Source: a virus
Direction: 5' to 3' (one strand)
DNA length: 18,159 nucleotides
UHGV virus genome: UHGV-0178165
Shown here: positions 3,001 to 6,000 of the stretch, piece after piece
How positions within the stretch are numbered: the first letter of the stretch is position 1
How the letters are laid out: the number at the start of each line of letters is the position of its first letter
Position numbers: made by a program

Positions 3001-6000
3001 CCAGCCTCACAAAGAGCCTCAATATGGTTAATCACGGAGCGTTTGCTAATCTCGCACTGGTCAGCGATATGCTGATATGAAGGCCAGCATTCGCCATTGT
3101 CATTGGCGTTATCGGCAAGTTTAAGCAGAACCAGTTTTCTGAGCGGGTTTCCAACTTTGGCTCCCATTGCCTTCACCATCAGAATCATACTCATTTTTTC
3201 ACCTCCAATTGGTTGTGTTTGTTAATGCTTATTTAAGCATCAGGCGAGCAAACTTCGGCTGGTTACTTCCTGGCTCCAAATTCAAAACCCCAGTCTTTTC
3301 CAGTGCTAAAATGTGACCAATTACTGTCGATCTGCTAATATCGCACTGATAAGCGAGATCTTGATATGAAAACCAGCATTCGCCATTGTCATTGGCGTTA
3401 TCGGCAAGTTTAAGCAGAATCAGTTTTCTTCGCGGGTTCCCAACCTTAGTTCTCATTGCTTTCTCAATCAGAATCATACTCATTGTGTCTTCTCCTGTAA
3501 TTTGTGCTTTCTATTCATGACAGCCAATCATCTTTGCCAGACCGCGCTGGGTAAGCGTTGACAGGTTGATGAGTAAATCAGTTTCTGCGCGATCAATTTC
3601 TCGCTGTGTTGGCTTGCTGTAACTTGCTTGTGTCATTTGTTAATTCACCAATAGTGAATAGTTAGTTGAAAGGTATGCGTGGAAACGCATATAGCCTTAG
3701 TTGGTCAGATATCTTGGAACTCGCTTTTCAGCGACGTAGGACGAATGTCCGTTGTTACAAAGAGCAGTCCCGCTTATTAAGCGGCTTTGTGTTCCGGCGG
3801 GAACACGTCATCAAGACTTACATTTGCGCCTAACTTGTTCAGGTAAGCAACGAGAGCACGGCATGTTTTAAGATCTGGCATGCGACGACCACTTTCCCAA
3901 TGACCGACAGCCGACTGTGTGCATCCAACTGCCTTAGCAAGTATTGTTTGACTGATGCTCACTGACTTTCGATATTTCTTAAGGTTGTTCATATTTCCTT
4001 CCCAACATTGGTAACCACGCTATTATAGTACATCTAGTGCGTTTTTAATGCAAGCAAAAATACCACACTCCAAATCCTGGTGAACCAACCCCAAACCTCC
4101 TGAATCGCATTCTGACGCAATATTTACGCCCACACGTACATTTTAATGTCTGACAGTTGTTTATCTCTCTACAGCGCTTCCTATGGCGTTTAAACGCCAT
4201 TGACGTAACTAATGGTTGCCGAGACCGGCTTTCCGCATGCCTGCACACCAGAATATTTCCTCGAATGCCTTGTCGGTTTCTTCGTGACGGTCAGGAGTTT
4301 TTTCACACTCTGTTCGGACATGTTCGAACATAATGTTTTTAGGTTCATTGACTGGTTCAAAAGAGTGACTGGTTCTGGGTGCAGCTCCTGCACCACCCCC
4401 TAGTGAATCTCCTGCACCACCCTAGTGAATCTCCTGCACCACCCTGGTGAATCTCCTGCACCACCCTGGTGAATCTCCTGCACCACGGGCCAGCTTCTTG
4501 ACGGGCTACAGGGTTTAGGGATTTCACCACTTTTGGTGAAAACTTGGCGCCAACTTTCTTTCCCAAAATATAAATCAATAAAATACATAGAGTTATAAAA
4601 AACTAACCACATTTAGAGTGTTTGTGTTGACTTAATCAACTACGTCCCGTACTATTTAGTCATCAGCAGGAAGCTGGAAGCCAAACGGAACAGACTGGCA
4701 GGCTCTTTAAACAACGTCGAACACTCGACTACGTGGCTGAAAAGCCAGATCACCCAACCACATAAGCTGTGGGATGCAATGCCGAAGCAACCGTCTCAGG
4801 AGGGGCTTCGAGATTGCATCGCCAAAGTTTATTCGGGAGGAATCTATGTCCAGAAAAACAGAATTTAAAGGAACCGCAGCTTCTCGCCGTAGAGCTCGTC
4901 GTGCAAATCTGCAAAGTCAGGAGGCGATCAGCTCCGACAAGCTACACAGGCCAACCCCTTCACGAGTGGTCTTGCAATGCAAGCGCAAACCAGCAATGAG
5001 AGCAGAAGTGATAACTCTGACAACGTTGACCAGAAAATATGAAGGTTCAACTTGTCTTCCAAACGTAGCTCTTTACGCGGCAGGCTACCGGAAATCAAAA
5101 CAACTGACAGCGAGGTAAGTGATGAATCAGACATACATTCCATCATGCTTGAGAAATCTGCCAAAGCAGAAAGCAAAGCCCCGCAAGCAAGCCATAAAGG
5201 ACGCTAAGGCAGAGGTTATTGATCAAGCAATACAATTGCTCAGGGAGGAGTTAAGAAGTGGCAAGCTCGAAGGAATGATGATGCCCTATCAGCGCGGATA
5301 TCTTTCGGCGATTAGTAAGTTGGAAGTATTGAAGAGTGAATTATGAACTATCTGGAATTTCCGGATGGTTCATTGTTTTGGCAGCAAACCACTTGTTTGA
5401 GGACTGATACATGAGAGTAAAAACTATGGGCGTAAGCCCATTAAGTGGTCGTATTTTTCAAGGAACATTAAACACTGAAAAAGGAATGTGGGTAGGAAAG
5501 AAAGAAGATGTAACCGAACAGGCAGTTAAGGCAGTAGCTGAACACATGATGATAAAAGGCCAGAAATATGCATACGGGACGAAGGATGGCAAATGGCTGA
5601 TAATAAGCCATCAAGTGGTTGATAAATTACCAGAAGATTTTATTGCTGATTAAAATTATTTTGGCATAAATAACAGAATAAACACAGCACTGTGTATTCA
5701 TTCCAACGAGTGAATACACGGAGCAATGTCGCTCGTAACTAAACAGGAGCCGACTTGTTCTGATTGTTGGAAATCTTCTTTGCCCTCCAGTGTGAGGGCA
5801 ATTTTAGCACACCATGCAATATGCCATTGCAGGGTGGCCTGTTGCTGGCTGCCCTTCCGAATCTTTACTTGAACGAATCACCCGTAAATTACGTGACGGA
5901 TGGAAAAGAGTTGAGGTCTTATTATGCGCAATGAAATAGCCATCAATCACCAGATGCTTCGTGCTGCACAGAACAAAGCAGTAATAGCCAGATTTATTGG

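What the first reader, a model, noticed from the sequence alone, without database searches (positions are those of the whole stretch)
3993..4845. No CI/C2-type repressor gene between the divergent pR and pL promoters; the slot holds a second iteron array and an AT-rich tract
cro with pR on one side and N with pL and nutL on the other define a lambdoid immunity region, but the ~630 bp between the promoters has no credible ORF on either strand. It contains an 18-bp palindrome (4183-4200), a ~260-bp copy of an internal initiator-gene segment with four 22-bp iterons (4398-4485), and an AT-rich stretch (about 4555-4615) abutting the pL -35. Iterons plus an AT-rich element are the architecture of an origin. 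Either the repressor was replaced by an ori-like element or decoy (virulent derivative), or this phage keeps control by another mechanism.
Basis: partly seen in the sequence, partly recalled or inferred. Interest (0 to 1): 0.8.

Follow-up and report, generated by a model that had tools for sequence, protein, structure and literature searches.

The report
Repressor gene replaced by origin copy
A P22-like phage found in many metagenomes has lost its lysogeny genes, and the slot that normally holds the cI repressor is filled by a non-coding patch of replication-module DNA including a second copy of the phage's own replication origin, most likely a recombination scar in a phage that has become purely lytic.

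Summary

Prophages with related cro and N carry a 231-aa S24 (LexA-family) cI in this slot. Homology to them stops near 4066 and resumes near 4537. A ~470-bp non-coding patch therefore replaces cI. It consists of an ori copy (iterons, a short AT-rich run, a 20-bp palindrome, O codons ~133-168) fused to a 126-bp O-P intergenic module from another replication allele.

The AT-rich tract at 4555-4615 is not part of this. It is native DNA upstream of pL, present in cI+ relatives.

cII is cut to 41 aa and int/xis are absent. The patch was found in no searched genome, prophage or isolated phage. It occurs in 11 metagenome assemblies, one of them a relative only 87% identical.

ORFs in the slot change frame between variants, and iteron number varies from 2 to 5. 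The slot copy stays 98-100% identical to the resident ori, which points to gene conversion.

Best reading: an ex-temperate, now lytic lineage carrying a recombination scar that probably still binds O. A working second origin is not excluded.

The parts
2424..3194 (-). Resident O-type replication initiator gene (256 aa, HTH_36), containing the phage's own ori
   Evidence: Pfam HTH_36 E 4e-14. PHROG replication-initiation families. Iterons at 2843-2953.
2692..2911 (.). Resident copy of the repeated ori segment (the partner of 4225-4444)
   Evidence: the repeat finder family D2, 220 nt at 98%. It is 100% identical over 238 bp to the slot copy in L007.
3229..3483 (-). ORF84, a truncated paralogue of the O N-terminal winged-helix domain. 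It occupies the place of the cII C-terminus.
   Evidence: 70% identity to O residues 1-67. HTH_36 E 2e-10. Repeat D3 at 80%. Found only in this lineage, in 11 contigs.
3511..3636 (-). Truncated cII (41 of ~91-98 aa)
   Evidence: Pfam Phage_CII, profile positions 1-37 of 91. Homology to the cII of L001 stops at window position 3509.
3777..3992 (-). cro
   Evidence: HTH_3 E 2e-12. 85% aa identity to the Cro of cI+ prophage L001.
3993..4065 (-). OR/pR region: -10 TACTAT (4030-4025), 17-nt spacer, -35 TTGCAT (4053-4048)
   Evidence: Positional homology to L001 and phiKp_30. The hexamers were read. pR is below the scan threshold, so it is inferred.
4066..4097 (.). Left junction: orphan DNA with no relative
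   Evidence: No match in phages, E. coli genomes or any fetched locus outside this lineage. 75% identity to L014.
4098..4223 (-). 126-bp O-P intergenic module from another replication allele. It includes an SD-like AGGAGG (4101-4096) and the 18-bp palindrome at 4183-4200.
   Evidence: 76-80% identity to the DNA between the O stop and the P start in phiKp_30 and in E. coli FDAARGOS_943. The window's own O-P junction lacks it.
4225..4375 (-). Copy of O codons ~133-168, then a 20-bp palindrome (4311-4330), a short AT-rich run (4331-4345) and a spacer
   Evidence: The palindrome is also flagged.
4376..4486 (.). Second iteron array: a palindromic half-iteron (4376-4397) plus four 22-bp iterons (4398-4485), core GTGAATCTCCTGCAC
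   Evidence: Iteron number and subtype vary between genomes (2, 4 or 5).
4487..4536 (.). Right junction: orphan DNA. A small hairpin, TTTCACCA-CTTT-TGGTGAAA, lies at 4522-4541.
   Evidence: No relative found outside this lineage. 96% identity to L014.
4537..4620 (.). Native DNA downstream of cI and upstream of pL, including the AT-rich tract 4555-4615. It is not part of the insert.
   Evidence: 95% identity to cI+ prophage L001 from 4555. The alignment extends to ~4537. Other cI+ relatives match from 4565.
4627..4655 (+). pL (TTGACT, 17-nt spacer, TACTAT)
   Evidence: Promoter scan. Conserved in L001, phiKp_30 and L014.
4702..4747 (+). Putative nutL: boxA-like GCTCTTTAA (4702-4710) and boxB-like hairpin TGGCTGAAAAGCCA (4734-4747)
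   Evidence: Read and inferred by analogy with lambdoid nut sites. Not tested.
4846..5118 (+). N antiterminator (90 aa)
   Evidence: Pfam N_peptide E 3e-32.

Best explanation
The window belongs to a P22-like (Lederbergvirus-type) phage lineage that was temperate and has become lytic through erosion of its lysogeny module.

In relatives, an S24/LexA-type cI gene, often followed by cargo genes, sits between cro/pR and pL/N. Here cI has been swapped, between about 4066 and 4536, for a ~470-bp non-coding patch built from replication-module DNA. The patch has two main pieces:
- A 262-bp copy of the phage's own origin: a half-iteron, four 22-bp iterons, a short AT-rich run, a 20-bp palindrome and O codons ~133-168.
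- A 126-bp O-P intergenic module from a different replication allele, fused to the origin copy.
About 30 and 50 bp of orphan DNA sit at the two junctions.

cII is cut to 41 aa and int/xis/attP are gone. I infer that pR and pL fire unrepressed on infection and that Cro is the only operator-binding regulator left.

The patch encodes nothing. Recombination with the resident ori keeps it nearly identical to that ori. Because its iteron cores are identical to the resident ones, it should bind O protein. It is most likely a tolerated scar rather than a needed element.

Shown: the anatomy, the breakpoints, the absence of a gene, the recurrence and the variability. Inferred: the lytic lifestyle, O binding, gene conversion and dispensability.
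For: - Breakpoints. Homology to cI+ prophage L001 ends at about 4060-4066 and resumes at about 4537-4555. The gap corresponds to L001's 231-aa LexA-family gene.
- The usual layout. The same N protein is listed in over 14,000 blocks of the collection; in all ten places shown, a 231-235-aa Peptidase_S24 protein lies in the slot.
- No coding capacity. No Pfam hit for any slot ORF. tblastn with five cI proteins found no cI remnant.
- Frame instability. 1-, 2-, 3- and 23-nt indels among near-identical genomes change the ORFs. A 139-aa ORF exists only in L008, a 76-aa ORF only in L007, and none is called in the window.
- Loss of the lysogeny module. cII is truncated. There is no int between 10510 and the tailspike gene at 10573-13269, whereas IME10 has int at that position. 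No repressor family matched any of the ~40 larger ORFs scanned with Pfam or PHROGs, in the window and in the ~8.7 kb beyond its start.
- Never seen as a prophage. Patch and pL k-mers gave 0 hits in genomes of 100,044 species. None of 5,426 E. coli genomes covers 80% of the region.
- Recurrence. The patch occurs in 11 metagenome assemblies.
- Independent cI loss in a close relative. The sewage isolate phiKp_30, whose P gene is 99.35% identical, lost cI by a separate internal deletion.
- Age and neutrality. L014 is 87% identical overall and shares both junctions. Its patch segments are 93-96% identical to the window. That matches the synonymous divergence of cro (pS 0.058).
- Variable array. Iteron number is 2 in L014, 4 in the window and L008, and 5 in L007.
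Against: - The patch has survived 13% sequence divergence, although direct-repeat recombination across 1,533 bp should delete cro and pR. That could mean it is useful.
- Every genome keeps at least two full iterons with an intact 15-bp core, plus the half-iteron.
- The copy contains every cis feature of a lambda-type ori.
- Only two divergence levels are available, so constraint cannot be measured properly.
- Lifestyle is inferred from sequence only.
- About 13 kb of the genome, presumed to be morphogenesis genes, was not inspected for a repressor.
Confidence: 0.6

Rival explanations
1. The slot copy is a working second origin or O-some assembly site. O binds the 4-5 iterons. The adjacent AT-rich run and palindrome (4311-4345) melt. 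The position between two strong divergent promoters, with no repressor present, supplies the negative supercoiling that lambda-type origins normally gain from transcriptional activation. The result would be faster or more robust replication in a purely lytic phage.
For: - The copy spans all cis parts that define a lambda-type ori: iterons, AT-rich run and palindrome. The definition of ori-lambda is taken from PMC3349717.
- The iteron cores are identical to the resident ones.
- The copy stays 98-100% matched to the resident ori.
- It is retained in a relative only 87% identical.
- The twin-domain supercoiling argument comes from general knowledge and was not tested here.
Against: - Iteron number drifts from 2 to 5, and L014 has only 2 full iterons.
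- The AT-rich/palindrome part is one of the least conserved segments (76%, with a 3-bp indel).
- phiKp_30 does without any such element; only 165 bp lie between its OR and pL.
- Overall divergence matches the synonymous rate of cro.
- Identity to the resident ori is expected from gene conversion alone.
Confidence: 0.25
2. The array is a negative-control or decoy locus. The extra iterons would titrate O or handcuff the resident ori, as incA does in plasmid P1. Alternatively they would act like the iteron-dependent 'inhibition phenotype' described for lambda, tuning the switch away from theta replication.
For: - A second array with the same specificity lies 1.5 kb from the ori.
- Iteron-bearing lambda fragments supplied in trans silence replication initiation (PMC3349717, abstract).
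Against: - That phenotype also needs oop transcription, and no oop-like element or promoter was found in the slot.
- There is no obvious benefit of self-inhibition for a lytic phage.
- Copy number of the array is not held constant.
Confidence: 0.08
3. The phage still controls lysogeny or early transcription by another factor. Candidates are a repressor encoded elsewhere, or ORF84 (the O N-terminal paralogue) binding the slot iterons between pR and pL.
For: ORF84 is an intact winged-helix protein expressed from the pR operon and is unique to this lineage. The iterons lie between the two early promoters.
Against: - No S24/XRE repressor among the ORFs scanned across ~27 kb.
- int/xis are absent and cII is truncated, and there is no prophage copy.
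- The iterons lie 145 bp or more from pL and over 320 bp from pR.
- L014 carries the patch, but its sequence diverges from the window 25 bp past the cro stop, so ORF84 may not accompany the patch there.
Confidence: 0.04
4. Assembly artefact: short-read assemblers joined the wrong paths through a ~240-bp repeat.
For: The window contig has only 4x coverage. Several assemblies break at the repeat.
Against: - The unique junctions OR|4066... and ...4536|pL are each reproduced in independent contigs with 120-414x coverage. These come from both SPAdes and MEGAHIT assemblies, and from a Logan contig of a diverged relative that crosses the whole slot.
- The alternative path through the repeat would delete cro and the N-terminus of O.
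Confidence: 0.03

Closest known systems
Lambdoid / P22 immC immunity region (cI/C2, Cro, OR/OL, pR, pL, N)
   Same: Divergent pR and pL with -10 TACTAT in both, cro, N with a nutL-like site, and cIII and kil downstream. cro is 85% identical in protein, and pL-N 95% in DNA, to a cI+ E. coli O157 prophage.
   Different: The cI gene and its pRM/start region are missing and replaced by non-coding DNA. cII is truncated. No integrase.
Clear-plaque or virulent derivatives of temperate phages, including Klebsiella phage phiKp_30 and virulent Lederbergvirus UAB_Phi20
   Same: A P22-like genome that appears unable to lysogenise. phiKp_30 (33.7 kb, from sewage) has a P gene 99.35% identical to the window, also lacks cI and has no annotated int.
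   Different: phiKp_30 has a plain internal cI deletion that leaves 17 N-terminal codons. UAB_Phi20 keeps all lysogeny genes (PMC12111858). Here cI is substituted by an ori copy plus an O-P module, and the arrangement is old enough to be shared by genomes only 87% identical.
Lambda-type origin inside the O gene (ori-lambda; Stx-phage oris)
   Same: A tandem iteron array followed by an AT-rich run and a palindrome. The iterons also encode part of the initiator's linker (PMC3349717, PMC7466680).
   Different: The slot copy lies outside any functional O gene, in an untranscribed divergent-promoter region. Its iteron number is unstable.
Second iteron clusters of iteron replicons (P1 incA, R6K, phage P4 ori/crr), cited from my own knowledge
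   Same: Two separated arrays of the same iteron on one replicon, in direct orientation.
   Different: In those systems the second cluster has a demonstrated role (copy-number control or a required cis site) and a conserved structure. Here there is no evidence of a role, and the copy number is variable.

Membership tests
Lambdoid immunity region (complete cI/Cro switch) | cro gene next to pR/OR | tested here: met
   HTH_3 Cro at 3777-3992(-). OR is homologous to cI+ relatives.
Lambdoid immunity region (complete cI/Cro switch) | An HTH + Peptidase_S24 repressor gene between pR and pL | tested here: not met
   No Pfam hit for any slot ORF. tblastn with five cI proteins was negative. Relatives have the gene in this position.
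Lambdoid immunity region (complete cI/Cro switch) | pL followed by nutL and N | tested here: met
   pL found in the scan. N_peptide E 3e-32. The nutL boxA/boxB assignment is by reading only.
Lambda-type replication origin | A tandem array of iterons matching the phage's own initiator | tested here: met
   Four 22-bp iterons plus a half-iteron. The 15-bp core is identical to the iterons inside O.
Lambda-type replication origin | An AT-rich unwinding region flanking the iterons | tested here: inconclusive
   Region 4320-4345 is only 70-73% AT over ~30 bp and is copied from the resident ori. The richer tract at 4555-4615 is ancestral pL-upstream DNA.
Lambda-type replication origin | Supports O/P-dependent initiation | not testable with these tools
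   Needs a plasmid replication assay or replication-intermediate mapping.
Iteron control locus (P1 incA-like) | An extra iteron array outside the origin that lowers initiation | not testable with these tools
   The array is present. Its effect on replication is unknown, and its copy number is unstable.
Ex-temperate, obligately lytic derivative | Loss of repressor, establishment and integration functions | tested here: met
   cI is absent, cII is reduced to 41 aa, and no int/xis lies between 10510 and 10573. cIII is retained.
Ex-temperate, obligately lytic derivative | Not found integrated in bacterial genomes | tested here: met
   0 hits for the pL and patch k-mers in genomes of 100,044 species. 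No E. coli genome covers 80% or more of the region. Exact Cro and ORF84 occur only on metagenome contigs of at most ~41 kb.
Ex-temperate, obligately lytic derivative | Forms clear plaques and no lysogens | not testable with these tools
   No isolate is available.

The most novel reading that the evidence does not exclude
The repressor slot has been taken over by a functional second origin. O protein assembles on the slot iterons between the two unrepressed, divergent early promoters. Negative supercoiling from those promoters opens the adjacent AT-rich/palindrome element. The phage would then gain a second, transcription-coupled initiation site, or an O-dependent brake on pR/pL that replaces cI. 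Gene conversion would keep the site matched to the initiator.
Probability: 0.2. Interest if true: 0.7.

Novelty: new variant of a known kind. Interest (0 to 1): 0.4.

Why it matters
This is a natural, recurrent example of a temperate P22-like phage turning lytic by losing cI, cII function and integrase. It documents what can fill the vacated immunity slot. Such lineages matter for understanding temperate-to-lytic transitions and for choosing 'safe' therapeutic phages among lambdoid-looking genomes.

If the origin copy were active, it would be an unusual two-origin lambdoid phage. It would also be a clean natural test of how transcription-driven supercoiling activates an origin.

The lineage also shows Cro and its operators diverging together in the absence of cI. 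That may reflect escape from the immunity of resident prophages.

Tried and rejected
- Hidden repressor. Pfam on every slot ORF of 40 aa or more, and on the 139-aa ORF of L008, gave nothing. tblastn with five cI proteins gave nothing.
- Non-coding RNA. Rfam at E<=1 gave only a sub-threshold CsrB hit (16 bits against a gathering score of 71) caused by the GGA-rich iterons. The RNA fold of the module is no better than shuffles, z = -0.1.
- A promoter inside the patch. The scan found none and manual inspection found only weak hexamers.
- Origin of the orphan junction pieces. No match in phages, E. coli genomes, species-representative genomes or any fetched locus.
- Relatives in IMG/VR. Three junction k-mers gave 0 hits, and a Cro-based locus search returned only relatives of 49% identity or less.
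- A cI+ ancestor of the same immunity type. The pL 22-mer gave 0 hits in genome contigs. The closest E. coli cro/OR is only 82-87% identical.
- EC.P3, the top phage hit, has a 285-aa ORF in the slot and is not the same configuration.
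Full report
**What the window is.** The window is ENA contig ERZ1034763 NODE_473, 18,159 bp at about 4x coverage. It is a mosaic P22-like (Lederbergvirus-type) genome, read in the opposite sense to the usual lambda map.
- A 968-aa Toprim primase/helicase gene ('P') runs off the start of the window and begins near 2316(-).
- O, the initiator, is at 2424-3194(-).
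- cro is at 3777-3992(-) and N at 4846-5118(+).
- Then come cIII, kil, ORF6N/Rha antirepressor-like genes, an Erf/Rad52 recombinase and SSB.
- Further on are a tailspike gene at 10573-13269(-) and ejection-protein genes.

- Region 4225-4444 is a direct repeat of 2692-2911, inside O, at 98% identity over 220 nt.
- The O-like stretch extends to 4486.
- It carries a palindromic half-iteron at 4376-4397 and four tandem 22-bp iterons at 4398-4485, with the core GTGAATCTCCTGCAC. The same core occurs three times inside O.
- The 18-bp palindrome ATGGCGTTTAAACGCCAT is at 4183-4200.
- AT content reaches 80-87% at 4560-4590.
- pL is TTGACT, 17 nt, TACTAT at 4627-4655.
- pR, read by homology, is TTGCAT (4053-4048), 17 nt, TACTAT (4030-4025).
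- No ORF of 40 aa or more in the slot hits any Pfam family. tblastn with five cI repressors from relatives finds nothing in any frame.

**What was replaced.** E. coli prophages with related cro and N have a LexA-family (HTH + S24) gene in the slot. None of 5,426 complete E. coli genomes and none of 50,697 phage records covers 80% of 3700-5000.
- In the O157:H7 strain 611 prophage (L001), homology to the window runs up to 4060 and resumes at 4555. The gap corresponds to its 231-aa cI gene and short flanks.
- Alignment puts the real breakpoints near 4066 and 4537.
It is 95% identical in L001, and other cI+ relatives match from 4565 onward.
- The same N protein is listed in more than 14,000 blocks of the collection. 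In all ten places shown, a 231-235-aa S24 protein lies in the slot, often followed by variable cargo genes.

**Anatomy of the ~470-bp patch,** read on the minus strand from pL towards pR.
- 4536-4487: about 50 bp of orphan DNA; a small hairpin lies at 4522-4541.
- 4486-4376: the iterons.
- 4345-4331: a short AT-rich run, 70-73% AT.
- 4330-4311: a 20-bp palindrome.
- 4310-4225: O codons ~133-168, ending in 'LGNH*'.
- 4223-4098: a 126-bp module.
  - The module is 76-80% identical to DNA that lies between the O stop and the P start in Klebsiella phage phiKp_30 and in an E. coli FDAARGOS_943 prophage.
  - The window's own O-P junction lacks it.
  - It ends with the Shine-Dalgarno-like AGGAGG that precedes P in those relatives.
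- 4097-4066: about 30 bp of orphan DNA.

The patch is therefore a rearranged piece of a replication module: an ori copy with ~365 bp of the O 3' end deleted, joined to an O-P spacer. By analogy with ori-lambda (iterons plus an adjacent AT-rich sequence, PMC3349717), the copy contains all the cis parts of the resident origin. Its own AT-rich/palindrome element lies to the left of the iterons, not at 4555-4615.

**The rest of the lysogeny module is also eroded.**
- cII is cut to 41 aa at 3511-3636.
- Its C-terminal part is replaced by ORF84 at 3229-3483. ORF84 is a truncated paralogue of the O N-terminal winged-helix domain, 70% identical to it.
- Only 62 bp separate the last early-left ORF from the tailspike gene. 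IME10 carries int at that position.
- Pfam or PHROG scans of the larger ORFs in the window and in the next ~8.7 kb (the nin region to the lysis region, from L007) found no repressor.
- cIII and kil remain.

**Recurrence and age.** Exact-protein look-ups and one k-mer scan recovered the same configuration in 10 further assemblies.
- Two are ~40.8-kb contigs. One breaks inside the slot iteron array. The other is a MEGAHIT flag_3 contig at 414x coverage.
- Several are 1.1-1.7-kb contigs; some begin or end at the repeat.
- A Logan contig, L014, is only 87% identical over 3752-4710. It has a different downstream nutL/N region, yet it carries the same patch with the same junctions. The patch is therefore old and inherited, not a one-off accident or an artefact.
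- The patch and pL k-mers are absent from genomes of 100,044 species and from IMG/VR. This fits a lineage that does not lysogenise.
- phiKp_30, a sewage isolate whose P gene is 99.35% identical, lost cI independently. It has an internal deletion that leaves 17 N-terminal codons, with only 165 bp between OR and pL.

**Is the patch under selection?**
- Among near-identical genomes, the slot shows 1-, 2- and 23-nt indels. These change every ORF: a 139-aa ORF exists only in L008, a 76-aa ORF only in L007, and none in the window. Nothing in the slot is protein-coding.
- The array has 4 iterons in the window and L008, 5 in L007 and 2 in L014, with different subtypes.
- Between the window and L014, the module, O fragment, right orphan piece and AT tract are 93-96% identical. 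That is about the same as the synonymous divergence of cro (pS 0.058). This comparison shows no constraint, but with two divergence levels it is weak.
- The slot copy is 98-100% identical to the resident ori within the window lineage, yet only ~93% identical to the slot copy of L014. Because the junctions are shared, this pattern implies gene conversion between the two copies. That is expected for a 240-bp repeat in a phage with its own recombinase and does not require selection.

**Verdict.**
- Most likely (0.6), this is an ex-temperate, now lytic lineage whose cI was replaced by a recombination scar made of replication-module DNA. The scar should still bind O.
- A real second origin or O-some site, favoured by its position between two unrepressed divergent promoters, remains possible (0.25).
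- An incA-like decoy (0.08), an alternative control system involving ORF84 (0.04) and an assembly artefact (0.03) are unlikely.
- Virulent Lederbergvirus phages and cI-deleted phages are known (PMC12111858; phiKp_30). Genus members are normally temperate, with cI, cII and Cro (PMC11990801). I therefore rate this a new variant of a known kind, of moderate interest.

Noticed in passing
window 3229-3483 (-): ORF84 is an intact 84-aa truncated paralogue of the O N-terminal winged-helix domain, 70% identical over 67 aa. It sits between the truncated cII and O. It is unique to this lineage (one 84-aa protein cluster, 11 contigs). Whether it binds iterons or competes with O is unknown.
   Followed up: partly
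window 3913-3914, 4036, 4041; L007; L014: Cro and its operators diverge together even though no cI is present. L007 has Cro S27G plus two SNPs in the pR spacer. L014 has six Cro changes, five of them inside the HTH (S14N, I17V, S27G, G30V, S34K; pN/pS ~0.9). In L014 the -35/-10 spacers of both pR and pL are rewritten (OR is 77% identical against 93-96% in the flanks). This may reflect escape from the immunity of resident prophages.
   Followed up: partly
window 4098-4223; L005 4001-4129; L003 32971-33095: A ~130-bp module with a conserved GCGTTTAAACGC palindrome is present in some O-P intergenic regions and absent from others, immediately upstream of the P start codon. No Rfam match, no significant fold and no promoter were found. 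Its function is unknown.
   Followed up: partly
window 10510-10573: int, xis and attP (and any O-antigen conversion genes) are missing. The last early-left ORF is 62 bp from the tailspike stop, whereas IME10 has an integrase at that position.
   Followed up: yes
window 6058-6899, 8166-8831; L007 7964-8734, 9684-10418, 12760-13320: There are unusually many antirepressor-type genes (ORF6N, Rha, ANT/KilAC domains) in a phage with no repressor of its own. They may act against the repressors of resident prophages.
   Followed up: no
window 5805/5806 and 6815; L006 1397-1851 and 2862-3381: Compared with the 40.8-kb genomes, the window variant lacks 455 bp (a DUF2528 gene) and 520 bp (the ANT domain of the Rha protein). 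This suggests continuing gene loss within the lineage.
   Followed up: partly
window 1-2316 (-) and L008 5677-8216: The 968-aa Toprim primase/helicase carries a weak LAGLIDADG_3 hit in the precomputed Pfam list. This could be an intein or a homing-endonuclease insertion.
   Followed up: no
L011, L021 (1652 bp) = window 2692-4343: These MEGAHIT contigs equal one 1,533-bp repeat period plus a 119-bp (k-mer) overlap. This is the graph cycle expected from the direct repeat. It could also reflect real circles excised by recombination between the two ori copies, carrying pR, cro, the truncated cII, ORF84 and a truncated O.
   Followed up: no
window 2313-2420 (-): A 35-aa ORF lies between O and P and overlaps the P start. 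Most of its DNA is conserved in L005 and phiKp_30. It has no Pfam match.
   Followed up: no
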